The notes beneath the pieces were generated by a model. It was given only the letters and a program-made list of their open reading frames with translations. It made no database searches and was not told where the DNA came from. Below, piece after piece: positions 8,104 through 26,440 of a DNA stretch of 32,000 nucleotides (the first letter of the stretch is position 1; each line of letters opens with the position of its first letter). This DNA comes from Trichodesmium erythraeum IMS101 (GTDB taxonomy: Bacteria > Cyanobacteriota > Cyanobacteriia > Cyanobacteriales > Microcoleaceae), in assembly GCF_000014265.1 (NCBI RefSeq), contig NC_008312.1, positions 3,630,001 to 3,662,000 of the forward strand, written 5' to 3'. Both the position numbers and the translations under genes were made by a program.

Positions 8104-9891
8104 ATGCGAACCCATTATTGTGGCCAAGTAAATAGTAATAATATTGAAGAAACTGTGAACCTCTGTGGATGGGTAGACCGCCGTCGGGATCATGGGGGGG
8201 TAATTTTTTTAGACTTGCGCGATCGCTCTGGTCTTATCCAAATTGTCAGCGACCCAGAGCGCACACCAGACTCCTATCAAATAGCAGGAGATATTCGTAA
8301 TGAATATGTTGTACAGATCACAGGTCGAGTCAGTCGTCGCCCCGAAGAGTCTCTCAACCCCAAACTTCCTACTGGGGAAATCGAAATTTACGCCGATGAT
8401 ATTCAACTATTGAATGGCTTAGGTAAACAACTGCCATTTCAGGTTTCCACAGCTGAAACAGAAGCAGTACGAGAAGAGTTGCGACTAAAATACCGATATT
8501 TAGACTTGAGAAGGGAACGCATGACTCGCAACTTATTATTACGTCATGAAGTTATCAAAGCGATACGTCGTTTTCTGGAAGACGAACAAAATTTTGTTGA
8601 AATTGAAACCCCGATCCTAACACGCTCTACTCCAGAAGGAGCAAGGGATTATCTAGTTCCCAGTCGCGTTCATCCTGGGGAATGGTTTGCCTTACCCCAA
8701 TCTCCCCAACTTTTTAAGCAAATATTGATGGTGTCTGGTTTTGACCGTTATTATCAAATCGCCCGTTGTTTCCGGGATGAAGATTTGCGAGCGGATAGAC
8801 AACCAGAATTTACTCAGTTAGATATGGAAATGAGCTTCATGTCTCAGGAGGAAATTCTGCAGTTAAATGAGAAGTTGGTAGCTTACATTTTTCAGAAAGT
8901 AAAAGGTATAGACTTACCTTTACCATTTCCGCGACTGACTTATACCGAAGCGATGGAACGTTATGGTAGTGATAAACCTGATGTTCGCTTCGGTTTAGAA
9001 TTAGTGGATGTCTCTGACTTGATGAAAGATTCTGGTTTTAAGGTATTTTCCGGTGCCATTGCTAAAGGTGGGATCGTGAAAGTATTGCCTATTCCTGGAG
9101 GTAACGATGCCATCTCCAATGTTAGAATTAAACCTGGTGGAGACTTGTTTAAAGAAGCGAGTGAAGTAGGAGCAAAAGGTTTAGCTTACGTTCGTGTCAA
9201 AGAAGGCGGTAAGATAGATACTATTGGAGCTATCAAAGACAACCTCACCGATGAGCAAAAACAGGAATTACTCAAACGTACTAATGCTCAACCTGGTCAT
9301 TTGCTGTTATTTGCCGCGGATGACGCAAATACTGTTAATAAAACCTTAGACCGCCTCCGGTTGGTTATCGGGGAACAATTAGGATTAATTGATCAGGATA
9401 AAATTAGTCTATTATGGGTGACAGACTTTCCCATGTTTGAATGGAATGAGGATGAACAACGTTTGGAAGCTTTACACCACCCCTTTACTGCACCTCACCC
9501 AGACGATATTAATGACCTCAAGACTGCACGAGCCCAAGCTTATGATTTAGTGTTTAATGGTTATGAAGTTGGCGGTGGTAGTCTGCGGATATATCAACGG
9601 GATGTTCAGGAAAAGGTATTTGAAGCTATCGGTTTATCTGCTCAGGAAGCTGATAATAAGTTTGGCTTTTTATTGGAAGCATTTGAATATGGTACTCCTC
9701 CCCACGGTGGTATTGCTTATGGTTTAGATCGGTTAGTGATGCTGTTAGCAGTCGAGGAGTCTATTCGGGATGTAATTGCATTTCCGAAGACTCAACAGGC
9801 AAAGTGTTTGTTGGCAAATGCACCCTCTGAGGTTGATAAAAAGCAGTTGAAAGAATTACACGTTAGTTCTATTTCTAAGGCGAAATCTTAG
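8104..9891 (+). CDS. aspS: Aspartate--tRNA ligase (bacterial type, with GAD insertion domain)
   Basis: 595 aa. MRTHYCGQV...[23 protein letters not shown] is the OB-fold N-terminus. Class II motifs are present ([38 protein letters not shown]). Confidence 0.95.
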
Positions 9892-10296: not shown

Positions 10297-10533
10297 AAAT
10301 GAGTGACAGAGTTTTTTTTTCCATTTTCCTTATTCGGCTAGAGTTGCCGAAAATTGAATCTTAGGCTAGAGTTCCATTTCTAGTTGGGCTGGTCGCTCAT
10401 TTAAACTCGGGTTTTATTTGAGTATTCCCACTTTTTTACTAGAATTACTGATCACTTAATTGAGATGCACTCCATTTGTTCACATTTTGCGCAAATATTA
10501 TCCAGGAGTTACCAAGGGAGAACCCAGAAACTA

Positions 10534-10620
10534 TTTTTTTAAATCAATTTTTTTAAATCAATTTTTTTAAATCAATTTTTTTAAATCAATTTTTTTAAAT
10601 CAATTTTTTTAAATCAATTT
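10534..10620. repeat. 14-bp tandem repeat (AAATCAATTTTTTT), about 6 copies
   Basis: Units start at 10541, 10555, 10569, 10583, 10597 and 10611 and are perfectly identical. The array ends 10 nt from the stop codon of the heterocyclase gene. Confidence 0.95.
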
Positions 10621-10630
10621 CCCGGCCTCA

Positions 10631-12940
10631 TTAAAACACCATCGGCATTGAATTCATCTCCTCTTCTTGCAACGCTGCAGACAACAAACCCATTTTCACC
10701 GGAACATCATATAACCTCCCCTTGCCAAAGCGCGACCAAAAATGACGCAACCCAGGCACAATAACCTTAACTACTTTTAACTCAATATCCGGACGAGTCT
10801 GATCTAATACCAAAGTTTCCATTCCTGCCTCTTGAGCAATTTTCACACAAGTCAAAACATCATCATAAATATCATCGCTCCAAAGCTTAGGATAATCTCC
10901 ATAAACCTTAGCAGGTATTTCTGGATGGGGAGCTAAATAAGGATGACTTTCTAAAGTTGCTGTGGTCATCCATCTCTGGAGCCCTTCCTCCATCTGACTA
11001 ATATCTTGCTGATCCATTCCCAACCCAATTTGATTTACTTCCGTTACTGCTCGCAGAATGGCAATTTTCGGGTCAAAATGCGCTCCAAAACCAGTAATAA
11101 CTCGCTCATATTCTTCATTAACTCGACGAGATACGGCAGTAAAAGCAGGTATCCCTAAATCTGTAGTTAAATCTAATACCCATAACTCCCGCTGATTTTG
11201 TTCATAAAATTCTTGCACTTCCAATAAATAGGGGTCGTCAAAACTTGCTAAATCTACTCCCGGACGCTGCAAAGAATTATACCACCAAATTGCCACACTG
11301 TCGCGCTCAACTAATTCCATAAATCCTTGCAAAATTGCTTCTTCTATGGTATTGCCCGCAGCATTGCCATTGGAATCAGCTACACAAAAATTATGCTTTT
11401 TGGGCAATTTATAAGCATAATAACACCAAGCAGTAGGCAAATATTTGTGGGTCTCCTCCGTCAGTGACCACACTGGAGTCCATTCAATTTCTTGACTGGC
11501 ATCAAAAGGTTGGGGGATCCAATCATGAGCCACTTTAGAATTAGCATTCAATTCCTCCCGGTTAGCATACTGAGTCGGACTAAAATGTAGACATCTTTCT
11601 GGATGAATACCTTGCTTTCCCAATTTGGCTAAAGTTGACTTTTTCCGAGGTTCGTCTCCCTGGAATATTCCCGAATAACGTTCGATCGCTTCACAAAAAC
11701 CACTGGCTTTAGATTGGCGATCGCTCTTACCTTTACCTCCACTTTTATGACGCAGGGAACGACGCAAAGCACCGAGACTTTTCGCAGCACCAAAACTATG
11801 GATAGCACTGTAAGTATGAATTAAAGGATTTTCGGGGTCAGAAACTCGCACCAAAGCACTGACAACTCCTGTAATGGGACTAATCAATTTTTTGTAGCGT
11901 TTGGTTGTTTGGTCGGGAGTGAATGCCCGGTGACCGCCATCTGTGGTAAAATGCTTTTTGCGACTGCTGAGACTGAGAGGATAAGATGACATTTCTTGGA
12001 GTAACTTGGAATCTCCACAAGCTTCACATTGGGGGCGTTTACTCAAAATGTGAGTTGTTGTGGAGAAGTCGGTTTGGTTGAAAGTAACCACTTTTCCAGC
12101 GAGAGTAGTAAACTTTGGCATTTCTACCCCACTTTCTTTGACTATCCATTTCGCAACTTCCGTAGTTATAAGATTAATTCCCGTTGCCAAAGTTGAAGGA
12201 AGGAAAACAGGGGGAGGAGGCAAGCACCCAGTAACATCTCTTTTGCTAGCACTGGAGACAACAGATTTTTCTTTTTGTCGCAAAACTGTGGCTTCCACTT
12301 CCCGATGTCCCCGTAAACGTTGACTTAAGCATTCCCAACATCCTGTATTTTCTGGTTCAAATATGGGACCCAACCACAGGACTCCCCCTACTGGTTTTGC
12401 TAACAACCAAGGTTGGCTAGCTGAGAGGGCGGTTTTATTAATCTCTTTTAATTGTGGTTGGAGGTAGTCGTCGGTGAGAACAACTAATAGTGCCTTGCGG
12501 TCTGATGTGAGTGGGTAGTTTTCCCAAGGTTTAGTTTTGATACCCACTGCTGTTAAACTTTCGATTAATAAATCTGTGGTTGTTTCTCCCACTGAGGCGA
12601 TATAAACCGTATTTTTTTGGAGACAGTCCGAGGCGAATTGGGGTTCGACATTCAGTAATGACCAAAATGCAGCGGCAGGTGGGGGTAGTTCGGGAGTTGC
12701 TTCTGTTAAATAACCTTTAGTTTTGAGGCGGTTAAGAACATATTCTACGTCTTCTGGGTATGCTATTTCTGCTAAAGTTTCACAGATTTCCTCAAAGCTA
12801 TGTTGACCATCTAATAGGGGGATGAGTTGACAGTAGAATTCTCCGGTGAGGGCGTCGGTGGAATTTTCTCCTAGGAGGTAAACGTGCTTGGGTTCGATAA
12901 TTTCGATGTGAAAGTGGGGTTTGATTTGTGGATTTGACAT
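10631..12940 (-). CDS. Cyanobactin heterocyclase (PatD/TruD family; fused E1-like/RRE docking domain + YcaO cyclodehydratase)
   Basis: 769 aa, colinear by eye with PatD as I recall it. Matching blocks include IKPHFHIEIIEPKHVYLLGE, VLTDDYLQPQLKEINK, QPWLLAKPVGGVLWLGPIF, GCWECLSQRLRGHREVEA, RPQCEACGD, HFTTDGGHRAFTPDQT, SGKGKSDRQSKASGFCEAIERYSGIFQGDEPR, SNGNAAGNTIEEAILQGFMELVERDS, DQTRPDIELKVVKVIVPGLR and RLYDVPVKMG. Confidence 0.93.
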   Translation of the reverse strand: MSNPQIKPHFHIEIIEPKHVYLLGENSTDALTGEFYCQLIPLLDGQHSFEEICETLAEIAYPEDVEYVLNRLKTKGYLTEATPELPPPAAAFWSLLNVEPQFASDCLQKNTVYIASVGETTTDLLIESLTAVGIKTKPWENYPLTSDRKALLVVLTDDYLQPQLKEINKTALSASQPWLLAKPVGGVLWLGPIFEPENTGCWECLSQRLRGHREVEATVLRQKEKSVVSSASKRDVTGCLPPPPVFLPSTLATGINLITTEVAKWIVKESGVEMPKFTTLAGKVVTFNQTDFSTTTHILSKRPQCEACGDSKLLQEMSSYPLSLSSRKKHFTTDGGHRAFTPDQTTKRYKKLISPITGVVSALVRVSDPENPLIHTYSAIHSFGAAKSLGALRRSLRHKSGGKGKSDRQSKASGFCEAIERYSGIFQGDEPRKKSTLAKLGKQGIHPERCLHFSPTQYANREELNANSKVAHDWIPQPFDASQEIEWTPVWSLTEETHKYLPTAWCYYAYKLPKKHNFCVADSNGNAAGNTIEEAILQGFMELVERDSVAIWWYNSLQRPGVDLASFDDPYLLEVQEFYEQNQRELWVLDLTTDLGIPAFTAVSRRVNEEYERVITGFGAHFDPKIAILRAVTEVNQIGLGMDQQDISQMEEGLQRWMTTATLESHPYLAPHPEIPAKVYGDYPKLWSDDIYDDVLTCVKIAQEAGMETLVLDQTRPDIELKVVKVIVPGLRHFWSRFGKGRLYDVPVKMGLLSAALQEEEMNSMPMVF

Positions 12941-13965: not shown

Positions 13966-14130
13966 ATCTTATTATATTTCAAACTGAAAATTCCCAGGGG
14001 TATCAAATAAATGGCCAGAAAACCTGGAAACTTTCAAGTTGGGCACTCCTACCATATTACCACCTGTTGCAATAATTGTGAATTCAAACTGATAGATGGG
14101 CAAATACAGGGAAGTTTTTCTCTAGATCAT
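13966..14130 (+). mobile_element. 5' fragment (upstream sequence plus first ~40 codons) of an IS200-like Y1 transposase, second copy
   Basis: cttattatatttc...ataaATGgccagaaaacctggaaactttcaagttgggcactcctaccatattaccacctgttgcaataattgtgaattcaaactgat is clearly homologous at nucleotide level to 16103-16270. It encodes MARKPGNFQVGHSYHITTCCNNCEFKLI and then loses the frame. Confidence 0.75.
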
Positions 14131-14173
14131 CATCAGACTTGAAACAGAGCGATCGCTCCCTTCTACTTCTCTA

Positions 14174-14323
14174 CAGATAGTGCAGAAAATTTGGGTGCAA
14201 CATGACGGTACTGAAGATGCGATCGCTGACCAATTAGTCGAAAAAGGAGTACCTGCAGAAGATATTGTTTTGGCCTATCATCCACCATTACTCAGAAAAT
14301 ATACAGAATTTGCCGAAAGTTAA
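14174..14323 (+). pseudogene. XisI (fdxN-element excision factor family) C-terminal fragment
   Basis: My translation ends at the TAA at 14321-14323: ...QIVQKIWVQHDGTEDAIADQLVEKGVPAEDIVLAYHPPLLRKYTEFAES*. This matches the conserved XisI C-terminus (KIWIQ-x-DGTE-x-GIA..L...G-x-P...IVLAFHPP). There is no start codon or N-terminal half. Confidence 0.7.
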
Positions 14324-14580: not shown

Positions 14581-16008
14581 ATGACATCCTCTCTATTCAC
14601 TCTATCCCTAACTTCATTAGTCACCCTGATCCATGAAGATGACAATATCATATTACAAGCTCCCATCCGCAGTCCACTCAAAAAAACTACTCCAACTCGC
14701 CAAGTCAAATTTGAACATCCCTCCTCAGGTTTAATATCGGCATTAAATCATCTCAAGTCTTCCCAGAAAACCTACCCTCAACTTAAAGCATTAGTGGTAG
14801 CTGCTGATGGCGAGGAAGCGGGAGAAAGATTTGATGTAGAATTGGAAAAACTCATAAATACAGGTTGGGTTTCCCATTCCCTTTACCCCCTGGCAACAGT
14901 TATCCCAATAGTGGAAAAAAACTATCGCTTTAAGTCTCCAGAAATTGCACAACTACAAGGAAAATTTACCTTGTCCCGTTTTGCCTATTTACACCAAAGC
15001 CAAGGGAAAACCATCATAGAATGTCCCCTGTCTACTAGTCAAATAATTGCATTAGACTGGCGATGTGGTGCCTTGCTTGCCAAATTATCTCAACCACAAA
15101 CCCCTAGCAGTTTGAGCGCAGATATTCCCGATATTACTGAAGAAATTGCCCAAAAATTCCTGGCTTTGTTGATGGCAACTCAAATGTTATCCCCAGAAAC
15201 CGAACCCACCCCGCTGATGTATTGGGAATTTCACGACTTGCTATTTCACAGTCGCTCTCGGATAGGAAGACACAACAACCCAACTGGAGGCACAATGAGA
15301 TTTTTTGGCAAAACTGAACCTTTGCCTATTGTCAAACCACCAATGAGTGACAAAGTTATTAAACTGGTGCAACCTAACTTAGAATATTTGACTCAAATTG
15401 ACATTCCCTTGACAAAAGCATTGGAGTTACGCCAGTCTATTCGGGAGTACGATGAACAACCAATACGGTTGCAACAATTGGGAAAATTGTTATATTGTTG
15501 CGCTAGGATTAAAAAAATAGAGACTATGGAAACAGAGGAATTCGGTACACTGCATTTAAACTATCGTCCTTATCCTTGTGGCGGTGCAATTTATGAGTTG
15601 GAAATTTATCCAGTGGTGAACCGTTGTCAAGGTTTGGCAGCAGGGGTCTATCACTATCAACCTTTGGAGCATTGTCTGTATCAAATTTCGGCTCATGAAA
15701 CACAAGTGGAGGCATTGATAGAGGATGCTTACAAGTCTAGTGGTGAACAAGATCAACCTCAAGTTTTGTTGGTAATAACAGCTAGGTTTGGGCGAATATT
15801 TTGGAAGTATGAATCAATTGCTTATGCTTTGATATTGAAGCACGTTGGTGTATTGTATCAAACTTTTTATTTAATGGCAACGGGGATGCACTTAGCTCCC
15901 TGTGCTTTGGGGATAGGAGATGCTGATAATTTTGCTCAGATAACAGGGTTAGATTATTATGAAGAGTCTTCTGTTGGGGAGTTTCTTTTGGGTTCGGTGA
16001 GGAACTAG
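14581..16008 (+). CDS. Stand-alone cyanobactin azoline oxidase (SagB-type FMN dehydrogenase, ThcOx-like)
   Basis: 475 aa. The C-terminal ~220 aa is a nitroreductase/SagB-type domain (RQSIREYDEQPI...RPYPCGGAIYELEIYPVV...GVYHYQPLEH...LLVITARFGRIFWKYESIAYALILKHVGVLYQTFYLMATGMHLAPCALG). The N-terminal ~230 aa is an extra region, as in stand-alone cyanobactin oxidases. Confidence 0.85.
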   Translation: MTSSLFTLSLTSLVTLIHEDDNIILQAPIRSPLKKTTPTRQVKFEHPSSGLISALNHLKSSQKTYPQLKALVVAADGEEAGERFDVELEKLINTGWVSHSLYPLATVIPIVEKNYRFKSPEIAQLQGKFTLSRFAYLHQSQGKTIIECPLSTSQIIALDWRCGALLAKLSQPQTPSSLSADIPDITEEIAQKFLALLMATQMLSPETEPTPLMYWEFHDLLFHSRSRIGRHNNPTGGTMRFFGKTEPLPIVKPPMSDKVIKLVQPNLEYLTQIDIPLTKALELRQSIREYDEQPIRLQQLGKLLYCCARIKKIETMETEEFGTLHLNYRPYPCGGAIYELEIYPVVNRCQGLAAGVYHYQPLEHCLYQISAHETQVEALIEDAYKSSGEQDQPQVLLVITARFGRIFWKYESIAYALILKHVGVLYQTFYLMATGMHLAPCALGIGDADNFAQITGLDYYEESSVGEFLLGSVRN

Positions 16009-16144
16009 TTATTACGGCGCTACCCCGTTTTTTCGGTAAAAATTTAGTTTCCGGAGATATCTAATAAGAATGTAGAGCACCGAATATATGGAGAGTTATT
16101 TTCTAATTATATTTCCCACTCCAAATACCCAAATGTATAAATAA

Positions 16145-16931
16145 ATGGCTAGAAAACCTCGAAACTTTCAAACTGGATATTCCTACCACATTACCACCCG
16201 TTGCAATAATCGTGAATTTAAACTGATCCGACGCGAATGCAGGGAAGTTTTTCTCTATGCCATCAAGAAAGCTATTAAGAAGTACAACTTCAAACTGTAC
16301 GCTCTCTGTATTATGTCTAATCACGTCCATTATCTTATAGAACCCGCCCAACCTGAAGATTTAGCTAAAATTATGCATTTTCTCAACTGGTATACGGCTA
16401 TGTGCTTTAACCGAATGTTGAAGCGCACTGGACATTTTTTATTGGGAAAAACGTTATTTTGCTGATGGTTTTCCTCCAGGCGATGGGGAGCGAGCTATAA
16501 ATACTCTTCGATATATCCATGGAAATCCCAAAGCTGCCAAAATACGCGGGGGGTTTTTCTACGACTTTAGTAATTATGGTAGTTACGAACGTTTGACTGA
16601 TGATGGTCTCACGGAGTGGCATCCAGCTTTTTTGAAATTAGCCAATACTTTGGAAGGGTGTGCCCAGAAGTATAAGGGGTTTTGCAACAAATACAAGCCA
16701 AAACAAAAAACTCCCAAAAAGTCCCACTGGGGAAGTAGGCTTTTAGGGGGTATAACTCTCAATTTTGAAAAGCGATCGTCTCAAAAGACAAAAAAATCAT
16801 CGACTTCCTTTGACTTTCCCCCGTGCCAGGTACCCCCGTGCCAGGTAACCGAAAAGCTAGAAGTAGCAAAGGTAGTAAGTCAATTTGTTGAAGCAAACAG
16901 ACCGCCGAAGCAAGAGGGAAAGGATTTTTGA
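16145..16931 (+). pseudogene. IS200-like / REP-associated tyrosine (Y1, HUH) transposase, frameshifted
   Basis: Frame 1 reads MARKPRNFQTGYSYHITTRCNNREF...CIMSNHVHYLIEP (HUH motif H-V-H)...RTGHF. The protein continues in the +1 frame from 16443 as WEKRYFADG...INTLRYIHGNPKAA (catalytic Tyr motif). About 4 extra nt at 16437-16442 break GHF|WEKRY. Confidence 0.8.
16641..16859 (+). repeat. Direct repeat, left copy (3' part of the IS200-like transposase gene)
   Basis: It aligns base for base with 17503-17706. By eye I count 4 mismatches plus a 15-nt internal tandem duplication (cccccgtgccaggta x2) found only in this copy. Confidence 0.9.
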
Positions 16932-16964
16932 CATTTTCTTGAGTTATGTGATACGCTAAAGTTC

Positions 16965-17168
16965 TTACTCGTCGTCTCCGTCGTAAGAACAGCTACAGAG
17001 TCTAGGGTGTAACCCATCACCAGAGGGCCCTGGGCCATTTGCCAATGGGCCATGGCCTTGGTTTCCTTCTGTGAGGTTCTCTTCTCTGAGTTCCTCCAGG
17101 GCAGGTCTAGCAACTAGGGAGCGAAAAACAGGTTGACTTGAGTTGGGCTGGATATTCTTTTTTCCCAT
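16965..17168 (-). CDS. Cyanobactin precursor peptide (PatE-like), single core
   Basis: I verified the translation codon by codon: MGKKNIQPNSSQPVFRSLVARPALEELREENLTEGNQGHGPLANGPGPSGDGLHPRLCSCSYDGDDE. The leader blocks M-x-KKN-x-x-P-x-x-x-x-PV-x-R and L-x-EL-x-EE-x-L resemble PatE/TruE/TenE. The C-terminal SYDG is the macrocyclase signature. A GAGG lies 8 nt upstream of the ATG. Confidence 0.85.
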   Translation of the reverse strand: MGKKNIQPNSSQPVFRSLVARPALEELREENLTEGNQGHGPLANGPGPSGDGLHPRLCSCSYDGDDE

Positions 17169-17200
17169 GGATATTACCTCTGTTTGTTTGGATATAGATA

Positions 17201-17229
17201 ATAGTAATAAAGTTTCTTTTTTCTGTCAA
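17201..17229 (-). promoter_or_regulatory. Sigma70-type promoter candidate for the precursor gene
   Basis: On the minus strand: TTGACA (complement of 17224-17229), exactly 17 nt, then TACTAT (complement of 17201-17206). It sits ~33 nt upstream of the ATG at 17168. Confidence 0.45.
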
Positions 17230-17502
17230 TTATATTTCCCCCAGTTTGATTAATTTTTGAAACTTTTCTCTACCTGTCAGACTATTGAACGCAGGCGGGG
17301 GCGAGCGTGATTACACCAAAATCTGTTGAAACCCTCGCGCGGAGCGACCATAGATAAATTAGATTTTGAGCCCAGGCATTACTTAATGGCATTACTATTA
17401 GCAAGAGATCAGTTAACTTCTCCTCAAATAGACTACAACTTTGTAGGGAGGTTGCTTTGTAGGAACGTTCCCAGATAACTGATACAATTAACAACTATAT
17501 TC

Positions 17503-17706
17503 GCCAATACTTTGGAAGGGTGTGCCCAGAAGTATAAGGGGTTTTGCAACAAATACAAGCCAAAACAAAAAACTCCCAAAAACTCCCACTGGGGAAGTAG
17601 GCTTTTAGGGGGTATAACTCTCAATTTTGAAAAGCGATCGTCTCAAAAGACAAAAAAATTATCGACTTCTTTTTACTTTCCCCCGTGCCAGGTAACCGAA
17701 AAGCTA
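17503..17706 (+). repeat. Direct repeat, right copy (orphan 3' fragment of a second IS200-like transposase copy)
   Basis: See 16641-16859. It encodes ...NTLEGCAQKYKGFCNKYKPKQKTPKNSHWGSRLLGGITLNFEKRSSQKTKK... with no upstream catalytic part. Confidence 0.9.
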
Positions 17707-17835
17707 CTATTAGCAAGACCTTAGAGTGACCATTATGTACAAAAATAAAAATAATTTTAAATTATTGGTAAAAATTTCAGCACTTACTATGGTAAGTTAT
17801 ATACGATTTATAAAAAAACAGGAGTTAAACATTGG

Positions 17836-17880
17836 TAACTAATGACTAATAACTGATAACTAATAATTAATAACTGATAA
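17836..17880. repeat. STRR heptamer array (TAACTAA/TAACTGA, 6 units)
   Basis: taactaa tgactaa taactga taactaa taattaa taactga taa ends 3 nt before the PatA-like ATG at 17884. Confidence 0.85.
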
Positions 17881-17883
17881 AAG

Positions 17884-19884
17884 ATGCCCGAAATTTCTTC
17901 AATTCCTGGAATCAAACAACTATGGGCAAAAACCAAAGGTAACTCTGAGGTTTGCGTGGCAGTGCTTGACGGTCTAGTTGACCTGAAACATCCTTGTTTT
18001 GAGGGAGCTAATTTGACTCAACTACCAAGCTTAGTTCAAGGTCAAGCTACTCCTCAAAGCGAGATGTCTCTCCATGGGACTCATGTGGCCAGTATAATTT
18101 TTGGTCAGCCAAACTCAAGCGTCTCTGGTATTGCTCCCCACTGTCGAGGTTTAATAGTTCCCATATTCTCAGACTATCATCGCCGAACTTCTCAGTTGAA
18201 TTTAGCACGGGCCATCGAACAAGCGGTGAATGCTGGGGCTAATATTATTAATATTAGTGGGGGTGAACTGACAGATTATGGTGAAGCTGAAGACTGGCTT
18301 AACCGTGCGGTGAGTTTATGCCAAAATAATAATGTTTTGCTTGTTGCTGCAGCGGGTAATGACGGCTGTGAATGTTTGCATGTTCCGGCAGCACTACCCA
18401 CTGTTCTAGCAGCAGGAGCCATGGGAGAAAACGGACAGCCCCTAGATTATAGTAACTGGGGCGAAAATTATCAGACTCAAGGTATTCTGGCTCTGGGAGA
18501 AAATATTTTAGGTGCTGAACCAGGAGGTGGTACAAGACAGTTGAGTGGGACCAGCTTTGCCACCCCAGTAGTGTCAGGAGTTGCTGCATTATTGATGAGT
18601 TTGCAGTTGCAAAGAGAGGAAAAACCAGACTCACAAAAAGTGCGTACTGCCTTACTCAAGACAGCTGTTCCATGTCATGCTCAAGAAAAACGCCGTTGTT
18701 TAGTTGGCCAGATGAATATTTCAGGTGCCATTGCACATATAACAGGAGAAACTATGTCAGAATCAGAACAAGATAATAGTAATGGTATTGAAGCTAGCTG
18801 TGGTTGTGAGTCAACTCCAGAAGCTAGCTTGCCAGGTTCAGTTGGCCTAGAAAATAGTCTACCGACTCCCGCCGACAATGGTGTGGTAGCTGCAGGGGTC
18901 GTTGAAGCTGGCGTCACGGCTTCACAACCATTATCATCAACTAATACATCTAATACATCTAATAATCAAATTTCTGCTATGCCAAATAATAGTCAAAGTA
19001 ACAATAGTAATGGAATCACACCCAGTCAACCTCCTCAAGACGTGACAAATATAGTCTACGTTATTGGTACATTGGGTTATGACTTTGGAACTGAAGCACG
19101 GCGGGACTCATTTAAACAGTTGATGCCAGCAGTTACTATTGGAAATACCCAAATTCCAGCTAACCCTTATGATGCTCGTCAAATGGTGGATTATTTGGCG
19201 AATAATCTTTCGGAAGCTAAATCTTTGATTTGGACTTTGAATATGGAATTGACTCCTATCTATGCTATTGAAGCTGTGGGGTCATTTGCACGGGAAGTTT
19301 ATGAAGCTTTGCAAGAGTTACTTGCAGGGGAAGTAGAAGCGGAAGATGCTGAGAGATATATTGAGCGGGTGAGTATTCCGGGAAAATTAACTGGGCGTAC
19401 AGTTAAGTTGTTCTCAGGCCAAGTGGTGCCTGTGATTGAACCTGTTAGTCCTCGTGGTATTTATGGCTGGCGGGTGAATACATTGGTTGGTTCTGCTTTG
19501 GAAGCAGTTCGTGGAGAACAAGCAGAGGCTGACGATGAGCAAATGCGTCGGAGTTTGAGCAGTTTCCTAAATCGAGTTTATTACGATCTACGCAATTTAG
19601 GGCAGACTTCTCAAGACCGAGCTTTAAATTTTGCAGCTACTAATGCTTTCCAAGCGGCTCAAACTTTCTCTACAGCAGTGGCAGCAGGCATGGAGTTGGA
19701 TAGTATTGCTGTGACCAAGAGTCCATTCTGTCGGATGGATAGTGATTGTTGGGACGTGCAGTTGAAGTTTTTCGATCCAGAAAATAACCGTCGGGCGAAG
19801 AAGGTGTTCCGGTTTACCATTGATGTTAGCGATTTCATTCCGGTAACTTTGGGCGAAGTTCGTTCTTGGTCTTCTCCTTATTAG
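17884..19884 (+). CDS. Cyanobactin N-terminal protease (PatA family: subtilisin domain + PatA/PatG C-terminal domain)
   Basis: 666 aa. The triad contexts are AVLDG, HGTHVASIIFGQ and SGTSFATPVVSGVAALL. It is nearly colinear with PatA as I recall it (GIAPHCRGLIVPIFSD, VNAGANIINISGGE, NNVLLVAAAGNDGCECLHVPAALP). An Asn/Ser-rich linker precedes the C-terminal domain GTLGYDFGTEARRDSFKQLMP...FRFTIDVSDFIPVTLGEVRSWSS. Confidence 0.92.
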   Translation: MPEISSIPGIKQLWAKTKGNSEVCVAVLDGLVDLKHPCFEGANLTQLPSLVQGQATPQSEMSLHGTHVASIIFGQPNSSVSGIAPHCRGLIVPIFSDYHRRTSQLNLARAIEQAVNAGANIINISGGELTDYGEAEDWLNRAVSLCQNNNVLLVAAAGNDGCECLHVPAALPTVLAAGAMGENGQPLDYSNWGENYQTQGILALGENILGAEPGGGTRQLSGTSFATPVVSGVAALLMSLQLQREEKPDSQKVRTALLKTAVPCHAQEKRRCLVGQMNISGAIAHITGETMSESEQDNSNGIEASCGCESTPEASLPGSVGLENSLPTPADNGVVAAGVVEAGVTASQPLSSTNTSNTSNNQISAMPNNSQSNNSNGITPSQPPQDVTNIVYVIGTLGYDFGTEARRDSFKQLMPAVTIGNTQIPANPYDARQMVDYLANNLSEAKSLIWTLNMELTPIYAIEAVGSFAREVYEALQELLAGEVEAEDAERYIERVSIPGKLTGRTVKLFSGQVVPVIEPVSPRGIYGWRVNTLVGSALEAVRGEQAEADDEQMRRSLSSFLNRVYYDLRNLGQTSQDRALNFAATNAFQAAQTFSTAVAAGMELDSIAVTKSPFCRMDSDCWDVQLKFFDPENNRRAKKVFRFTIDVSDFIPVTLGEVRSWSSPY

Positions 19885-21036: not shown

Positions 21037-23145
21037 GTGCCAGACTTTGCAGATATTCCCGGACTCACCAAATTATGGACTCACACGAAAGGAGACCCTC
21101 GCATCACAGTTGCCCTCCTCGATGGAACTGCTGATATAGAACGTGGTTGCTTTCAGGGGGCCAATGTTACGAAAATCAATTCTTATTGGCAAGAAGCAAT
21201 AGAGCTTGACCCCAAAGATATAGACACCTACCGAGAAATTCAGAACTCTGATGAAAAAAGTGAAGTTAAACAGGCAAAACTGAAAGAAGCTATCCCAGAC
21301 GAAATAACTTTACAAATTCTCGGAGCAGCTTTCCACGCGACTCATGTCTTTAGTAACATTTTCGGACAACCAGGAACTCCCGTGGAAGGTATTGCCTACA
21401 AATGTCGGGGCATTAATATTCCTCTTGGTTATGGTAATGACTATTATATCGACCCCATAAACTTAGCTCGTGGCATTAACCTAGCAGTAGACTTGGGAGC
21501 AAATATTATTCACTGTGCTGCCTGTCGCCCTAACCAAACTGGTATTGGTCACGAAATTCTAGAAAAGGCAGTACGTCAAGCTCAGGAAAATAATGTTTTA
21601 ATTGTGGCTCCCACAGGCAATAATAAAGGTGAATGTTGGTGTCTCCCTGCTATTTTGCCTGGAGTCATGTCCGTAGGAGCAATGAAGGATAATGGTCAGG
21701 TATTCAAATTTAGTAACTGGGGCGGACAATATCAACAACAAGGTATTATTGCTCCGGGGGAAAATATTCTCGGTGCTCAACCAGGAACAGAAGAAACTGT
21801 CCGCCAAAAAGGTACCAGTTGTGCAGCGCCAATGGTGACAGCTATTTCGGCATTGCTGATGAGTTTGCAGTTGCAGCAAGGAGCATCTCCAGATGCAGAA
21901 GCAGTGAGGGCAGCTTTAACAAACAGTGCTATTCCCTGCACTTTAGAAGATACCGAAGAAATCGAACGTTGTATGTTGGGTAAACTGAATGTTGCCGGAG
22001 CTTATCAACTTTTGACAGGAAAGCAGTTAGAAGCAGTGGGAGTTTCTGCGGCTGAAGCGACCTCAGAAGAAGATGTAATATTGGAAGATAGTGGGGTTGA
22101 TGTGGGGGAAGTTATTGTAGATGAAACTTCAGTAGTTCCTGCCCAGGAAAATGCTCCCATATCTTTTTCTCTGCCAGTGGGAGAAAATAGAGAGAGTCTG
22201 ACAAATGTGGCAACAAATATCACTGCTGCATCGGGAGTAGAGCAAAACAATATCAAACCCACAAAAGTTTCTCAAACTGCTCATGGTGTTACCCCGAGTG
22301 CTCGCTCCAATATGATTTATGCTTTGGGTACCTTGGGTTATGATTTTGGTACTGAGGCACGACGAGACTCATTTAAACAGTTAATGCCAGCAGTGATATT
22401 AAACGGGGTACAAGTTCCAGCTAATCCCTATGATGGTCGTCAGATGGCTGATTATCTGGATGCTAATTTATATGAAGGGAAATCTTTAATCTGGACTTTC
22501 AATATAGAATTAACTCCTATTTATGCCCTCAGACCTGTAGGTGCATTTGCGGACGATATTTATGAAACTCTGCAAAATATGTTAGCAGGAGAGGTGGAGG
22601 CAGAAGACCATGAAGACTACATCGACAGGGTGAGTATTACCGGGAGGTTAACTGACCAAACAGTAAAGTTGTTTTCTGGGCAAACCCTGCCGGTGGTGAA
22701 AATAAACAGCCCCCGGGGAATGTATGGTTGGACGGTGAATAGCCTAATAGATAATGCTTTGGAGTCAGTTAGGACAGAACAAACAGAGGCAGAGGAGGAG
22801 GCAATACGGAAATCTCTGAGAAGTTTTTTGCAACGGGTTTATTATGATCTGCGCAACCTGGGTCAGGCAGATCGCGATCGCGCCATCAACTTTGCAGCGA
22901 CAAATGCTTTCCAAGCAACGGCGACTATTTCTGAAGCAGTAGCTATTGGCATGGAGTTGCACAGTATAGAGGTAGAGAAGAGTCCTTTCTGTCGTTACAA
23001 TAGTAACTGTTGGGATGTTAAGTTGAAATTTTTTAACCCAGATAATAGTAGGAGAGCCAAGAGAGTTTATCGTTTTACTATTGATGTGTCAGATTTAATG
23101 CCTGTAACTTTGGGTAAAGTGCGGTCTTGGTCTGTGCCTAAGTGA
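21037..23145 (+). CDS. Cyanobactin C-terminal protease/macrocyclase (PatG family, no oxidase domain) + PatA/PatG C-terminal domain
   Basis: 702 aa with a GTG start. The triad contexts are ALLDG, HATHVFSNIFGQ and KGTSCAAPMVTAISALLMSLQ. The Asp-to-His spacing is ~35 aa longer than in the PatA-like paralog (insert ~21172-21321, SYWQEAIELDPKDIDTYREIQNSDEKSEVKQAKLKEAIPDEITLQIL). This fits the macrocyclase-specific capping insertion. The C-terminal domain runs GTLGYDFGTEARRDSFKQLMP...YRFTIDVSDLMPVTLGKVRSWS. Confidence 0.9.
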   Translation: MPDFADIPGLTKLWTHTKGDPRITVALLDGTADIERGCFQGANVTKINSYWQEAIELDPKDIDTYREIQNSDEKSEVKQAKLKEAIPDEITLQILGAAFHATHVFSNIFGQPGTPVEGIAYKCRGINIPLGYGNDYYIDPINLARGINLAVDLGANIIHCAACRPNQTGIGHEILEKAVRQAQENNVLIVAPTGNNKGECWCLPAILPGVMSVGAMKDNGQVFKFSNWGGQYQQQGIIAPGENILGAQPGTEETVRQKGTSCAAPMVTAISALLMSLQLQQGASPDAEAVRAALTNSAIPCTLEDTEEIERCMLGKLNVAGAYQLLTGKQLEAVGVSAAEATSEEDVILEDSGVDVGEVIVDETSVVPAQENAPISFSLPVGENRESLTNVATNITAASGVEQNNIKPTKVSQTAHGVTPSARSNMIYALGTLGYDFGTEARRDSFKQLMPAVILNGVQVPANPYDGRQMADYLDANLYEGKSLIWTFNIELTPIYALRPVGAFADDIYETLQNMLAGEVEAEDHEDYIDRVSITGRLTDQTVKLFSGQTLPVVKINSPRGMYGWTVNSLIDNALESVRTEQTEAEEEAIRKSLRSFLQRVYYDLRNLGQADRDRAINFAATNAFQATATISEAVAIGMELHSIEVEKSPFCRYNSNCWDVKLKFFNPDNSRRAKRVYRFTIDVSDLMPVTLGKVRSWSVPK

Positions 23146-24023: not shown

Positions 24024-25592
24024 TTAATCCTTTAAAGTCGAACGCATAGTTGGAAACATAATGACATCCCTAATACTTTGAGTATTTGTCAGCAACATCA
24101 CCAGACGGTCTACTCCAATACCCATTCCACCACAGTTAGGCATCCCCAGTGATAACGCTTGAATAAAATCTTCATCCATTGGGTGCGCTTCATCATCCCC
24201 TGCCTCTCTTTGAGCGATCTGTTCCTCAAAACGTTGGCGCTGGTCTTGTGGATCATTTAACTCGGAGAAACCATTAGAATATTCTGTGCCGTGAATAAAC
24301 AACTCAAATCTTTCCACAAAACCTGGTTTACTATGATGTCTTTTTGCTAACGGGCTAACCTCAACCGGAAAATCAATCACAAAAGTAGGTTGAATTAAAG
24401 TTGACTCTACTTTTTGATCAAAAACTGCATATAAAAGATAACCTAAACTTTGAGTTTCTAATTTGGATAATTTCAGGTTTAATTTTTCTGCTGCTCGAAT
24501 AGCTTCTGGCAACTCTAGGTTATCAAAATCTAGTCCTGTTTCATCCTTAACTGCTTCCACCATTGTTTTTACTTGCCAATGTTTTCCTGTGAAATTAGGA
24601 TATTTTTGACTATAGTCATATTGACGTTCTAAACTAATAGTTTGCCCTTGATATTCTATCTGTTTTAAATCCCCCAAAATATTGGTTAAACTATAACAAA
24701 TAACATCCTCTACCAAGCCCAGAATTTCAAAATAATCTGCATAAGCCTGATAAACTTCTAGGGAAGTAAACTCAGGATTATGAGTACTATCAATTCCTTC
24801 ATTTCTAAATACTCTTCCTAATTCAAATACCCGTTCAAAACCTCCACAAATTGCCCGTTTGAGAAATAATTCTGTAGCAATTCGTAAATATAAATCTACA
24901 TCTAAAGCATTATGATGAGTAACAAAAGGTCGAGCTGCAGCACCACCATAAATTGACTGTAAAATTGGTGTTTCTATTTCATAAAAATTAGCATCCCAAA
25001 GATATGTTCGAATACTTTGCATAATTTTGCTCCGCACTCTAAAACGCTGTAAAGCTTCAGCATTTCCAGCCAAATCCATTTCCCGGTGACGGCGACAAAT
25101 TTCTGGGTCATTTACACCATAATAAGAGTCAGGAAAAGGAATAATAGCTTTGGAGAGCACATCCAATTTATTTACCTGAATTGATAACTCACCTCTATTA
25201 GTACGACAACCTATTCCTTCCGCACTAACAAAATCTCCTACATCTAATAATTTTTGAACTTGTTTAAAGCTTAAACCAGGGTCGCCCTTTACTAATTTTT
25301 TCTCAATTTTAAGTTGAATTTTTCCAGTTTCATCTGTTAGGTTAATAAAACCAATACTACCACTATCTCGCTTAGAAGTAATACGACCGCAAACCTTTAA
25401 GAATTTTTCATTGGGGTCTGTTTCTCCAGGTTCTAATTCCTTTGCTGGTGGAGAAAATAGATCTATTACTTGCTTAGTGGTATGCGATCGCTCTATGGCT
25501 TGACTAGGATAGGGGTCTATTCCTTGGGCGCGTAATTCATCAACTTTTTGTGAACGAACTTCTACTTCATTCCTGGTTTCGCTTTTAGCCAT
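24024..25592 (-). CDS. lysS: Lysine--tRNA ligase (class II), somewhat divergent
   Basis: 522 aa. It has an OB-fold anticodon-binding region (KVCGRITSKRDSGSIGFINLTDETGKIQL) and class II core blocks (GGAAARPFVTHHNALDVDLYLRIATELFLKR, FRNEGIDSTHNPEFTSLEVYQAY, ERFELFIHGTEYSNGFSELNDP, GMGIGVDRLVMLLT). Confidence 0.9.
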   Translation of the reverse strand: MAKSETRNEVEVRSQKVDELRAQGIDPYPSQAIERSHTTKQVIDLFSPPAKELEPGETDPNEKFLKVCGRITSKRDSGSIGFINLTDETGKIQLKIEKKLVKGDPGLSFKQVQKLLDVGDFVSAEGIGCRTNRGELSIQVNKLDVLSKAIIPFPDSYYGVNDPEICRRHREMDLAGNAEALQRFRVRSKIMQSIRTYLWDANFYEIETPILQSIYGGAAARPFVTHHNALDVDLYLRIATELFLKRAICGGFERVFELGRVFRNEGIDSTHNPEFTSLEVYQAYADYFEILGLVEDVICYSLTNILGDLKQIEYQGQTISLERQYDYSQKYPNFTGKHWQVKTMVEAVKDETGLDFDNLELPEAIRAAEKLNLKLSKLETQSLGYLLYAVFDQKVESTLIQPTFVIDFPVEVSPLAKRHHSKPGFVERFELFIHGTEYSNGFSELNDPQDQRQRFEEQIAQREAGDDEAHPMDEDFIQALSLGMPNCGGMGIGVDRLVMLLTNTQSIRDVIMFPTMRSTLKD

Positions 25593-26340: not shown

Positions 26341-26440
26341 ATTTTCAGACGACTTAGCTCCGGGAGCTCAAACTCAATAGGAGCTAATAAAATTTCAGAC
26401 AACCTAGCCCCGGGAGCCCAAACTCAATAGGAGCTAAAAT
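26341..26440. repeat. 50-bp tandem duplication (2 copies, ~6 mismatches), each with a short palindrome
   Basis: attttcagacgacttagctccgggagctcaaactcaataggagctaataa is followed by aatttcagacaacctagccccgggagcccaaactcaataggagctaaaat. Copy 1 contains the palindrome agctcc-g-ggagct. The array starts 10 nt beyond the PP2C stop. Confidence 0.85.

What the first reader, a model, noticed from the sequence alone, without database searches (positions are those of the whole stretch)
16641..17706. Precursor gene is bracketed by ~205-219 bp direct repeats made from the 3' part of an IS200-like transposase
Segments 16641-16859 and 17503-17706 are near-identical direct repeats. By eye they differ by 4 mismatches and one 15-nt tandem duplication. 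Both begin mid-gene at ...ANTLEGCAQKY... and end at gaaaagcta. The left copy is the tail of a frameshifted full-length transposase gene. The right copy is an orphan 3' fragment. The 643 bp between them holds the precursor gene (opposite strand to its neighbours), its promoter and ~220 bp of unassigned sequence. A 13-nt microhomology (actattagcaaga) occurs at 17394-17406 and again right after the right repeat at 17706-17718. This geometry allows the precursor cassette to be excised or swapped by homologous recombination. It may record how this cluster acquired or exchanged its substrate gene.
Basis: seen in the sequence. Interest (0 to 1): 0.7.

Follow-up and report, generated by a model that had tools for sequence, protein, structure and literature searches.

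The report
Duplicated trichamide precursor cassette scar
The two repeats mark the edges of an 862-bp unit (the end of a transposase-like gene plus the trichamide precursor gene) that different Trichodesmium genomes carry zero, one or two times; this strain keeps one precursor gene and the stump of a second unit.

Summary
Segments 16641-16859 and 17503-17706 are direct repeats with 4 mismatches and one 15-nt insertion, and independent assemblies reproduce them.

The window is the trichamide (tri) cyanobactin cluster of Trichodesmium erythraeum IMS101. The bracketed gene is the precursor triG.

The repeats are not IS ends. They are the join-point repeats of a tandemly iterated 862-bp cassette (16641-17502). 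The cassette holds part of the 3' end of a Y1-transposase-like gene, the convergent precursor gene, its promoter and a 96-nt junction filler.

Sister Trichodesmium assemblies carry the same join point with different contents:
- two precursors with different cores
- one precursor and no right repeat
- no precursor

About 70 natural precursor variants share an identical leader and differ in a hypervariable core.

IMS101 therefore holds 1.24 units. The right repeat is most simply the stump of a second cassette.

The IS-acquisition idea is not.

The "transposase" is under purifying selection. It sits convergent to cyanobactin precursors, 33 nt stop-to-stop, in many genera, and its tail is copied along with extra precursors there too.

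The parts
16145..16931 (+). Y1 (HUH) transposase-like gene. It is a pseudogene in this strain because of a TTTA insertion at 16438-16441. Sister strains have an intact 255-aa protein.
   Evidence: Pfam Y1_Tnp scores 61-71 bits. The NCBIfam RAYT and IS200 models score below their cut-offs. The frameshift was located against L088, L089, L091 and L100. The N-terminal ORF is ABG51580.1 of T. erythraeum IMS101.
16641..17502 (.). The 862-bp tandem unit U. It consists of A + T + precursor gene + promoter region P + M + Z.
   Evidence: The start-to-start spacing of the repeats is 862 nt. The same unit is iterated in L093 and L099 with the same internal order. Units are 94-100% identical to each other outside the core-coding island.
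16641..16859 (+). Repeat A, the left copy. It encodes residues about 166-238 of the transposase-like protein and contains an IMS101-specific 15-nt tandem duplication at 16818-16832.
   Evidence: This is the least constrained part of the protein, with dN/dS 0.13-0.30.
16860..16964 (+). Segment T: the last 24 codons of the transposase-like gene (stop at 16929-31) plus the 33-nt spacer up to the precursor stop codon.
   Evidence: T is 99-100% identical in every cassette of every relative. The stop-to-stop spacer length is conserved across genera.
16928..16957 (+). Promoter-like motif TTGACA-18 nt-TACGCT. It overlaps the transposase-like gene's stop codon and points antisense through the precursor gene.
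   Evidence: The spacer is conserved as TTGACA/C-17 nt-(TGn)TAGAAT in 10 of 13 other genera examined, and with 18-nt spacing and TATGAT in L009. The IMS101 version has a weaker -10 and was not picked up by the consensus scan.
16965..17168 (-). triG, the trichamide precursor gene (67 aa, core GDGLHPRLCSC).
   Evidence: Pfam DUF5837 and NCBIfam TIGR03678 match. The core equals the trichamide sequence tabulated in PMC2854353. The protein is identical to P0121 of T. erythraeum.
17201..17229 (-). Promoter-like site for triG: TTGACA-17 nt-TACTAT, 10 of 12 matches.
   Evidence: The surrounding 17226-17254 is 99% conserved among cassettes.
17393..17406 (+). M, the 14-mer TACTATTAGCAAGA at the end of the cassette's promoter-side spacer.
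   Evidence: It is present at the end of P in every cassette. In terminal cassettes of L091 and L099 it is followed directly by Y.
17407..17502 (+). Z, the 96-nt filler at the duplication join point between M and the next A. Its origin is unknown.
   Evidence: Z is present only where another A follows: window, L099, L093, L092, L089, L090, L103. It is absent from L091, L102, L104 and L105. Its similarity to the gene sequence upstream of A is not significant.
17503..17706 (+). Repeat A', the right copy. It is an orphan internal fragment of the transposase-like gene and the start of an incomplete second unit.
   Evidence: In L093 and L099 the corresponding position carries a complete A-T-precursor cassette.
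17705..17718 (+). M', the second copy of the 14-mer. It joins A' to the unique PatA upstream region.
   Evidence: The A'/M' junction overlaps by the dinucleotide TA.
17719..17883 (+). Y, the unique sequence upstream of the PatA-type protease gene. It is the right-hand boundary of the array in all relatives.
14005..14132 (+). 5' fragment of a second, older copy of the same transposase-like gene, 85-88% identical to 16139-16265.
   Evidence: It is present in all Trichodesmium relatives.

Best explanation
Terms used below: A is the repeat (16641-16859), A' its right copy (17503-17706). T is the last 24 codons of the transposase-like gene plus the 33-nt spacer. E is a precursor gene. P is the promoter region (17169-17392). 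M is the 14-mer TACTATTAGCAAGA and M' its second copy. Z is the 96-nt filler (17407-17502). Y is the unique region upstream of PatA (17719-17883).

The repeat pair is the join-point signature of a tandem duplication of the trichamide precursor cassette.

Ancestral arrangement. A Y1-transposase-like gene faces one precursor gene, with 33 nt between their stop codons, followed by the PatA upstream region. The ALOHA_ZT_67 genome still shows this arrangement.

Origin of the repeats (inferred). One illegitimate event duplicated the segment running from inside the transposase-like gene's 3' third through the precursor and its promoter. It left a 96-nt filler (Z) at the join. From then on the duplicated gene piece (A) supplied about 200 bp of near-identical direct repeat.

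Subsequent behaviour. Ordinary homologous unequal crossing-over and gene conversion between A copies expand, contract and reshuffle the array. Short-homology deletions remove individual precursors. The copy-number series 0, 1, 2 with one shared join point is shown. That RecA-type crossover causes it is inferred.

State of IMS101. It holds 1.24 units: one complete cassette and the first 204 bp of a second. The second unit most simply lost its gene end, precursor and promoter (533 bp) through a deletion joining ...GAAAAGCTA to the unit's own terminal 14-mer (inferred).

Function. The orphan copy has no function of its own (inferred). It is a scar that still allows re-expansion or loss of triG.
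For: Identity of the locus.
- The window is the IMS101 tri cluster.
- The repeat is real in six assemblies and the complete genome.

Same unit, different contents.
- L099 reads gene-A-T-E-P-M-Z-A-T-E-P-M-Y-PatA.
- L093 reads ...A-T-E(P0135)-P-M-Z-A-T-E(P0149)-P-M-Z-A'-M'-Y-PatA.
- The period is about 850 nt, matching the window's 862, and the precursor cores differ.

Shared join point.
- The M-Z-A junction is identical in the window, L099, L093, L092, L089, L090 and L103. This implies a single origin followed by copy-number change.

States without the right repeat.
- L091 joins window 17385 to 17708, with one M, no Z and no A'.
- L102 has the same arrangement.

Precursor-less alleles.
- L104 and L105, from two samples, show a novel A|P junction.
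- L106 shows the junction expected from an A x A' crossover.

Concerted evolution.
- A copies within one array share array-specific variants.
- Substitutions among strains cluster in A: 12 sites in 219 nt, against 3 in the 496 nt upstream.

Sharp variable island.
- Units are 94-100% identical except for an island of about 60-80 nt that codes the core, at 19-58% identity.
- About 70 natural variants exist. Of 27 sequences fetched, 25 share the first 34 residues.

Generality.
- Okeania carries gene-tail remnants next to each of its three precursors.
- In Microcoleus, Dolichospermum, Microcystis, Nostoc, Limnothrix, Oscillatoria, Planktothrix and Argonema, each extra precursor comes with a copy of the gene's last 90-350 nt. 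The breakpoints differ from genus to genus.
Against: - The origin of the 96-nt filler Z is unexplained.
- The A'/Y junction differs between IMS101 (GAAAAGCTA|CTATTAGCAAGA) and L093/L106 (CCGAAA|TATCAGCAAGA). Either two separate deletions occurred or the sequence changed later.
- The order of events cannot be settled: a stump of a lost second cassette, or a primary partial duplication that later expanded.
- Most relatives are short-read metagenome contigs. Assemblers can collapse or mis-join 200-nt repeats, so L106 and some array contexts (L090, L092) could be chimeric.
- No direct observation of recombination was made.
Confidence: 0.8

Rival explanations
1. Nascent partial duplication. A single complex event (template switching) copied only Z + A' into the 14-mer M of a one-cassette ancestor and duplicated M. 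The two-cassette arrays of relatives arose afterwards by A x A' unequal crossover. On this view the right repeat never had a precursor next to it in the IMS101 lineage.
For: - M and M' are 14/14 identical in the window, like a target duplication.
- L093, with two cassettes plus a terminal A', is exactly what one unequal crossover between two IMS101-type chromosomes would give.
- L091 looks like the empty site.
Against: - It needs an unusual three-junction event, whereas a tandem duplication followed by a deletion uses two ordinary ones.
- L099 has two full cassettes ending P-M-Y with no terminal A'.
- The L093 and IMS101 A'/Y junctions differ.
- Deletions that start at the same end of A and remove a precursor are directly seen in L103-L105.
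Confidence: 0.15
2. An IS200-type insertion sequence, in two copies or as a copy plus a remnant, captured or delivered the precursor gene. The bracket would then be a composite-transposon-like vehicle that records acquisition of the substrate gene.
For: - The gene has a Y1_Tnp domain.
- A third, 5' fragment of the same family lies at 14005-14132.
- Published descriptions of other cyanobactin clusters call the equivalent gene a transposase.
Against: - The gene is at the same place in every Trichodesmium relative.
- It sits convergent to a cyanobactin precursor with the same 33-nt stop-to-stop spacer in 15 of 19 assessable full-length homologue loci from many genera.
- It is under strong purifying selection, with dN/dS about 0.05 while synonymous sites are saturated.
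- DNA homology between genera stops at the coding sequence, and no terminal repeats or hairpin ends were found.
- It scores below the curated IS200 and RAYT cut-offs.
- The right copy lacks both gene ends.
- A' is 97-98% identical to the adjacent A but only about 80-88% to the other fragment.
Confidence: 0.04
3. Enzyme-driven cassette turnover. The conserved Y1 HUH protein nicks single-stranded DNA at or near its own 3' tail and the precursor flank. This would actively promote duplication, deletion and exchange of precursor cassettes, and the repeats would be its footprints.
For: - The gene is tightly linked to precursor genes across genera.
- The HUH and Tyr motifs are conserved and under strong constraint.
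- Tail copies accompany extra precursors in many genera.
- Several independent deletion junctions start within 16842-16886 with little or no microhomology.
Against: - Duplication breakpoints in the gene differ widely between genera, from position 437 to 787 of the query, and there are two within Trichodesmium, 16615 and 16641. Random illegitimate recombination next to an adjacent gene would give this pattern.
- The clustering of deletion junctions is biased by how they were found, through a 90%-identity protein cluster.
- Arrays exist where the gene is broken (IMS101, L099, L019, L020) or absent (Okeania).
- No conserved hairpin was identified.
Confidence: 0.1
4. Assembly artefact: a mis-joined or duplicated repeat in one assembly.
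For: Short-read contigs of relatives often break exactly at the repeat. L003 and L004 end at about 17523, L089 starts at 17498 and L088 ends at 16830.
Against: - The structure is identical in NCBI, ENA and four Logan assemblies and in the finished 7.75-Mb genome.
- The two copies differ at fixed positions.
- L006 spans 16796-17703 in one contig.
Confidence: 0.01

Closest known systems
Multi-copy precursor (E) genes in cyanobactin clusters: pagE at 1-12 copies in Planktothrix, six artE in Arthrospira, pirE1-4 in Microcystis
   Same: - Tandem precursor genes have conserved leaders and different cores.
- Copy number varies between strains.
- A single 'transposase' gene is noted beside the E genes: ISpagF, 'between artE and artF', 'between sphE and sphF', and a 271-aa ORF next to PirE4 (PMC9366434, PMC4663559, PMC6162287, PMC3428304).
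   Different: - The tri cluster is described as having a single precursor.
- Here the repeat unit, its join point and a stump of a lost unit are defined at nucleotide level.
- The papers I could read treat the transposase as an incidental IS. None describes it as a conserved convergent partner whose tail is copied with each precursor.
Hypervariable core cassettes of Prochloron pat/tru pathways (natural combinatorial libraries)
   Same: The DNA environment is near-identical, and a short core-coding stretch is completely different between strains (PMC3062557). Trichodesmium shows the same pattern: 25 of 27 variants share the first 34 residues, and flanks are 94-100% identical.
   Different: - In Prochloron the cassettes lie inside one precursor gene, and no flanking repeats or copy-number series are described.
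- Here whole-gene cassettes sit in a tandem array bounded by 200-nt repeats, in a free-living bloom former.
Classical bacterial tandem amplification: a rare join-point duplication followed by homologous unequal crossover
   Same: - One shared join point (M-Z-A).
- Direct repeats in the same orientation.
- A copy-number series of 0, 1 and 2.
- Evidence of conversion between copies.
   Different: - The unit is very small, at 862 bp.
- The copies diverge sharply in one 60-80-nt island, so the array stores different products rather than raising dosage.
- The variation is a standing polymorphism in wild populations.
IS200/IS605 TnpA and REP-associated tyrosine transposases (Y1 HUH enzymes)
   Same: The N-terminal 125 residues match Pfam Y1_Tnp. 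They contain the HUH motif (SNHVHYL) and the Tyr motif (RYIHGNPKAAK).
   Different: - The protein is 255 aa, with a conserved C-terminal extension of about 130 aa that matches no known domain.
- It scores below both curated NCBIfam cut-offs.
- It occupies a single conserved locus beside precursors.
- No element ends were found.
- No solved relative was found by sequence.

Membership tests
Cyanobactin biosynthetic gene cluster (tri / trichamide) | PatA- and PatG-type subtilisin proteases with PatG_D and PatG_C domains | tested here: met
   17884-19884 and 21037-23145 score 974 and 939 bits on TIGR03895. Pfam finds Peptidase_S8, PatG_D and PatG_C.
Cyanobactin biosynthetic gene cluster (tri / trichamide) | Precursor with a microcyclamide/patellamide-type leader and a core equal to the known product | tested here: met
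   TIGR03678 scores 68 bits. The core GDGLHPRLCSC equals the trichamide sequence in PMC2854353. The protein is 100% identical to the T. erythraeum protein P0121.
Cyanobactin biosynthetic gene cluster (tri / trichamide) | YcaO cyclodehydratase, a separate ThcOx-type oxidase, PatB/PatC proteins, and tRNA-synthetase genes at the borders | tested here: met
   AspRS lies at 8104-9891 and LysRS at 24024-25592, as described for tri in PMC4663559.
Tandem duplication / amplification array maintained by homologous recombination | Same-orientation, near-identical repeats that bound a unit | tested here: met
   97-98% identity over about 204 nt, with a spacing of 862 nt.
Tandem duplication / amplification array maintained by homologous recombination | One join point shared by alleles with different copy numbers | tested here: met
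   The M-Z-A junction is identical in the window, L099, L093, L092, L089, L090 and L103.
Tandem duplication / amplification array maintained by homologous recombination | Copy-number polymorphism among close relatives, including the loss product | tested here: met
   - Two precursors: L099, L093.
- One precursor: window, L091, L102.
- No precursor: L104, L105, L106.
L106 could be an assembler collapse of the repeat.
Tandem duplication / amplification array maintained by homologous recombination | Recombination observed directly (heterogeneity within one culture, RecA dependence) | not testable with these tools
   This needs long reads or PCR on cultures.
IS200/IS605 insertion sequence | Y1 HUH transposase domain | tested here: met
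   Pfam PF01797 scores 71 bits against a cut-off of 23. The HUH and Tyr motifs are present.
IS200/IS605 insertion sequence | Protein reaches the curated family threshold | tested here: not met
   NF033573 scores 28.9 bits against a cut-off of 55.
IS200/IS605 insertion sequence | Defined element ends (subterminal hairpins) and copies at unrelated sites | tested here: not met
   Nucleotide homology to 80 relatives stops within 9 nt of the start codon and, downstream, in the precursor gene. The locus is the same in all Trichodesmium relatives. Hairpins conserved only as structure were not searched for.
REP-associated tyrosine transposase (RAYT) | Protein reaches the curated family threshold | tested here: not met
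   NF047646 scores 61.1 bits against a cut-off of 80.
REP-associated tyrosine transposase (RAYT) | Flanked by REP palindromes that are dispersed in the genome | not tested
   The whole genome was not available. No flanking inverted pair stood out.
Composite transposon / IS-bracketed cassette | Two element copies, or at least two element ends, flank the cargo | tested here: not met
   The right copy is an internal fragment covering codons about 166-238 of 260. It lacks both the start and the last 24 codons of the gene.

The most novel reading that the evidence does not exclude
The 255-aa Y1 HUH 'transposase' is a domesticated component of cyanobactin clusters, not a mobile-element gene. It sits 33 nt from the precursor stop codon in many genera. 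The spacer carries a conserved promoter-like motif directed antisense through the precursor. The protein may act on the precursor cassettes, by nicking or strand transfer near its own 3' tail, to drive their duplication, loss and exchange. That would make it the missing engine behind hypervariable cyanobactin libraries. The IMS101 repeats would then be its footprint.
Probability: 0.1. Interest if true: 0.85.

Novelty: new variant of a known kind. Interest (0 to 1): 0.55.

Why it matters
Cyanobactin pathways are the textbook case of natural combinatorial peptide libraries. How whole new cores appear in otherwise identical DNA is still unexplained.

What this locus offers:
- A concrete, PCR-sized structure in which copy number (0, 1, 2) and content of precursor cassettes vary between close Trichodesmium relatives.
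- One shared join point and 200-nt recombination substrates.
- An open-ocean library of about 70 trichamide-type cores.

It also changes the reading of the "transposase" reported case by case in the art, pag, sph and pir clusters. That gene appears to be one conserved, selected gene, tightly coupled to precursor genes. This makes a role in regulating the precursor or in cassette turnover testable.

For IMS101 itself the repeat is a non-functional scar.

Tried and rejected
Searches and tests that led nowhere:
- Two exact-pattern scans of metagenome contigs found nothing. One used 40 nt of leader, the other 24 nt of repeat A.
- The primary papers were not held: Sudek 2006, PMC1489667, and Donia & Schmidt 2011, PMC3119926. 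What they say about triE/triF or ISpagF could not be checked.
- I tested whether filler Z is degenerate gene sequence. The local alignment score was no better than shuffles: 489 of 1000 against the whole gene, 134 of 2000 against the colinear 120 nt. Rejected as unsupported.
- Rfam gave no match in 15900-18000 at E<=1.
- A terminator-like hairpin on the minus strand inside A (16739-16723) is weak. It is missing from the shortest retained tails in Okeania, so it is not proposed as the reason tails are kept.
- A PDB sequence search with the intact protein gave no hit.
- The species' own genome was not among the genome-contig hits, where the best match was 83%. Other copies of the gene in the IMS101 chromosome could therefore not be surveyed.

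Ideas considered and set aside:
- A 13-nt inverted match between 16513-16525 and the triG start was treated as chance.
- IS608-style TTAC cleavage-site readings of M were treated as numerology.
Full report
**Abbreviations.**
- A is the repeat at 16641-16859 and A' its right copy at 17503-17706.
- T is the last 24 codons of the transposase-like gene plus the 33-nt spacer (16860-16964).
- E is a precursor gene.
- P is the promoter region (17169-17392).
- M is the 14-mer at 17393-17406 and M' its second copy at 17705-17718.
- Z is the 96-nt filler (17407-17502).
- Y is the unique region upstream of PatA (17719-17883).

**Observation.**
- Reading the sequence, the repeat finder and a pairwise alignment confirm the report.
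- 16641-16859 and 17503-17706 are direct repeats with 4 mismatches and one 15-nt tandem duplication (16818-16832), present only in the left copy.
- A 14-nt exact repeat, TACTATTAGCAAGA, lies at 17393-17406 and 17705-17718.
- The left copy lies inside a 787-nt gene (16145-16931) whose two reading-frame halves join into a 260-aa protein.
- The gene runs 72 nt beyond the repeat, so the right copy is an internal fragment.
- The structure is not an artefact. Six independently assembled contigs are 99.99-100% identical across it, and the precursor also occurs on a 7.75-Mb record.

**What the window is.**
- Pfam and NCBIfam identify a complete cyanobactin cluster, with these components:
  - a YcaO cyclodehydratase (10631-12940, minus strand)
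  - a toxin-antitoxin pair
  - a ThcOx-type oxidase (14581-16008)
  - the Y1_Tnp-like gene
  - a 67-aa precursor on the minus strand (16965-17168)
  - a PatA-type protease (17884-19884)
  - PatC and PatB
  - a PatG-type protease (21037-23145)
- AspRS and LysRS genes flank the cluster.
- The precursor core GDGLHPRLCSC is trichamide (PMC2854353; PMC4663559).
- The N-terminal ORF of the transposase-like gene is ABG51580.1 of Trichodesmium erythraeum IMS101.
- The cluster itself is therefore known. I found no description of the repeats in the papers I could read. The primary paper was not held.

**Relatives.**
- A search with the precursor returned about 70 distinct variants, nearly all on short ENA metagenome contigs.
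- Of 27 fetched, 25 share the first 34 residues exactly and end in (C)SYDG(D/E)DE. Their cores are unrelated and of different lengths.
- I mapped window segments onto contigs that carry these variants. The arrangements, in window orientation, are:
  - IMS101: gene.A-T-E-P-M-Z-A'-M'-Y-PatA.
  - L091 (Trichodesmium sp. ALOHA_ZT_67 MAG): gene.A-T-E-P-M-Y-PatA. Window 17386-17707 is absent.
  - L102 (JGI contig): the same terminal arrangement.
  - L099 (GCA_000987385.1, from memory T. thiebautii H9-4, not verified): gene.A-T-E-P-M-Z-A-T-E-P-M-Y-PatA, with two precursors.
  - L093: at least two cassettes plus a terminal A'-M'-Y. It carries the same two precursors as L099.
  - L090 and L094: an older, 80-82% diverged cassette with a different junction, P position 151 joined to gene position 16615.
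- The M-Z-A junction is identical wherever a further A follows.
- Aligned units are 94-100% identical in A, T, the leader and the promoter core. Identity drops to 19-58% only in 16995-17054, the core-coding stretch.

**Loss alleles.**
- Members of the 90% cluster of the transposase-like protein with odd C-termini led to four contigs.
- L104 and L105 come from two samples and two assemblers. They run from ThcOx through the gene and A, then across a novel junction (GAAAAGCT|GAGCGTGATT) into the last 81 nt of P, then Y and the PatA start. They carry no precursor.
- L103 has the same junction, followed by M-Z-A.
- L106 has gene.A|TATCAGCAAGA-Y-PatA. That is the product expected from an A x A' crossover in an L093-type array, but an assembler collapse of the repeat could give the same contig.
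- Copy number therefore spans 0, 1 and 2 on one scaffold.

**Interpretation of the IMS101 structure.**
- The simplest history has four steps.
  - It starts from a one-cassette ancestor like L091.
  - One tandem duplication, with Z as filler, creates the M-Z-A join.
  - Homologous unequal exchange between A copies follows.
  - In the IMS101 lineage, T-E-P (533 bp) is lost from the PatA-proximal unit. This joins ...GAAAAGCTA to that unit's own M with a 2-nt overlap.
- On this history M' is the second unit's M, not a target duplication.
- The alternative is a primary partial duplication that later expanded. It cannot be excluded. The IMS101 and L093 A'/Y junctions differ.
- Support for exchange between copies:
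  - A copies within one array share private variants.
  - Among strains, substitutions in the gene pile up in A, with 12 sites in 219 nt against 3 in the 496 nt upstream.

**The "transposase".**
- The intact protein is 255 aa and is intact in L088 (as far as that contig extends), L089, L091 and L100. IMS101 has a TTTA insertion, and L099 has an independent +T.
- It matches Pfam Y1_Tnp at 71 bits. It falls below the curated RAYT threshold (61 against 80) and the IS200 threshold (29 against 55). It has no solved relative by sequence.
- A genome scan found 445 related stretches in cyanobacteria.
- Nucleotide homology is confined to the coding sequence.
- Of 19 assessable loci whose match reaches the C-terminus, 15 carry a convergent cyanobactin precursor. 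Its stop codon lies 35-40 nt, mostly 37, after the last codon. That is the same 33-nt stop-to-stop spacer as in the window.
- These loci include Pseudanabaena, Microcoleus, Xenococcaceae, Oscillatoria, Nostocales, Anabaenopsis, Dolichospermum, Planktothrix, Microcystis, Nostoc, Limnothrix and Argonema.
- A more distant clade, at 62-66% identity, has no precursor.
- The HUH and Tyr motifs and a C-terminal motif are conserved.
- dN/dS is about 0.05 for residues 1-165, with synonymous sites saturated. It is 0.13-0.30 in the part that forms repeat A.
- This is a long-maintained cluster gene, not a decaying IS.
- The literature mentions a transposase next to the E genes in art, sph and pag, and a 271-aa hypothetical ORF in pir, always as a local curiosity.

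**Generality of the repeat.**
- Okeania has three precursors, each followed by a remnant of the gene's 3' tail, and no full gene.
- In at least ten other genomes, each additional precursor in a tandem array comes with a copy of the gene's last 90-350 nt.
  - Limnothrix has four extra tails at 99-100% identity.
  - The left breakpoints differ between genera.
- Because the gene ends 33 nt from the precursor, any duplication that includes the precursor must start inside the gene. That geometry is enough to explain the pattern.

**Conserved spacer.**
- The 33-nt spacer is conserved across genera as TTGACA/C-17 nt-(TGn)TAGAAT on the gene's strand. The -35 overlaps the stop codon.
- In IMS101 it reads TTGACA-18-TACGCT (16928-16957).
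- It would fire antisense through the precursor.
- It lies in segment T, so every cassette carries a copy.
- This is a lead, not a demonstrated promoter.

**Verdict.**
- The recombination reading is supported in a more specific form: a tandem cassette array, of which IMS101 keeps 1.24 units.
- The IS-acquisition reading is not supported.
- The orphan repeat is a scar without a function of its own.
- The wider results that deserve follow-up are the natural trichamide-type library, the copy-number series, and the conserved Y1-like gene with its promoter-like spacer.

Noticed in passing
window 16928-16957 (+); L007-L031, just after the transposase-like gene's stop codon: The 33-nt spacer between the transposase-like gene's stop and the precursor's stop holds a conserved near-consensus promoter motif: TTGACA/C-17 nt-(TGn)TAGAAT. 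It points antisense through the precursor gene, and the -35 overlaps the stop codon. The IMS101 version is TTGACA-18-TACGCT.
   Followed up: partly
loci L007-L048 (genome contigs homologues), compared with window 16145-17168: The Y1-transposase-like gene is a conserved convergent neighbour of cyanobactin precursor genes in many genera: 15 of 19 full-length homologue loci, with the spacer length conserved. dN/dS is about 0.05. It looks like a cluster component rather than an IS.
   Followed up: partly
L091:6526-7482 (-), inserted between the equivalents of window 19972 and 20044: The ALOHA_ZT_67 Trichodesmium cluster carries a LynF/TruF/PatF-family prenyltransferase gene (TIGR04445, 302 bits) plus a TnpB-like remnant after PatA. 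L099 has a 587-aa TnpB-like gene there. IMS101 lacks the F gene, and reviews cite tri as the only F-less cyanobactin cluster.
   Followed up: partly
window 14181/14182; L088:4162-5366: Compared with L088, L099 and L100, the window lacks about 1.2 kb encoding DUF2281, XisH and most of XisI. Only a 47-aa XisI remnant (14180-14323) is left, next to the 5' transposase-like fragment at 14005-14132.
   Followed up: partly
window 10514-10625: A 14-nt tandem repeat (AATCAATTTTTTTA, about 7 copies) lies downstream of the cyclodehydratase gene. Its copy number differs between the window and the otherwise identical L001.
   Followed up: no
L099 (GCA_000987385.1), L091, L088, L089 versus the window: The whole tri cluster is 98.5-99.4% identical at the nucleotide level between IMS101 and assemblies that appear to be other Trichodesmium lineages. 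Two assemblies have independent frameshifts in the transposase-like gene: IMS101 (this window) and L099 (GCA_000987385.1, from memory the cultured strain T. thiebautii H9-4, not verified). The five metagenome-derived contigs examined are intact as far as they extend.
   Followed up: no
L005 (Logan SRR9438682), ends at window-equivalent 17415: One short-read contig of the IMS101-type allele stops 9 nt after the 14-mer M rather than at the repeat boundary. This may be a coverage gap or a branch to a variant junction in that sample.
   Followed up: no
L101 (ENA ERZ780646 NODE_665): Partial copies of the triG leader and promoter lie next to a shorter PatA-like gene and large unrelated ORFs. This looks like a degenerate or relocated cassette remnant.
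   Followed up: no
window 17841-17880 and 2678-2710: Heptanucleotide repeats (TAACTGA/TAACTAA type) lie just upstream of PatA, with an inverted match 15 kb away. They are probably the common cyanobacterial short tandem repeats.
   Followed up: no
window 26339-26437: Two tandem copies of a 49-50-nt unit, 90% identical, lie upstream of the PP2C-like gene.
   Followed up: no
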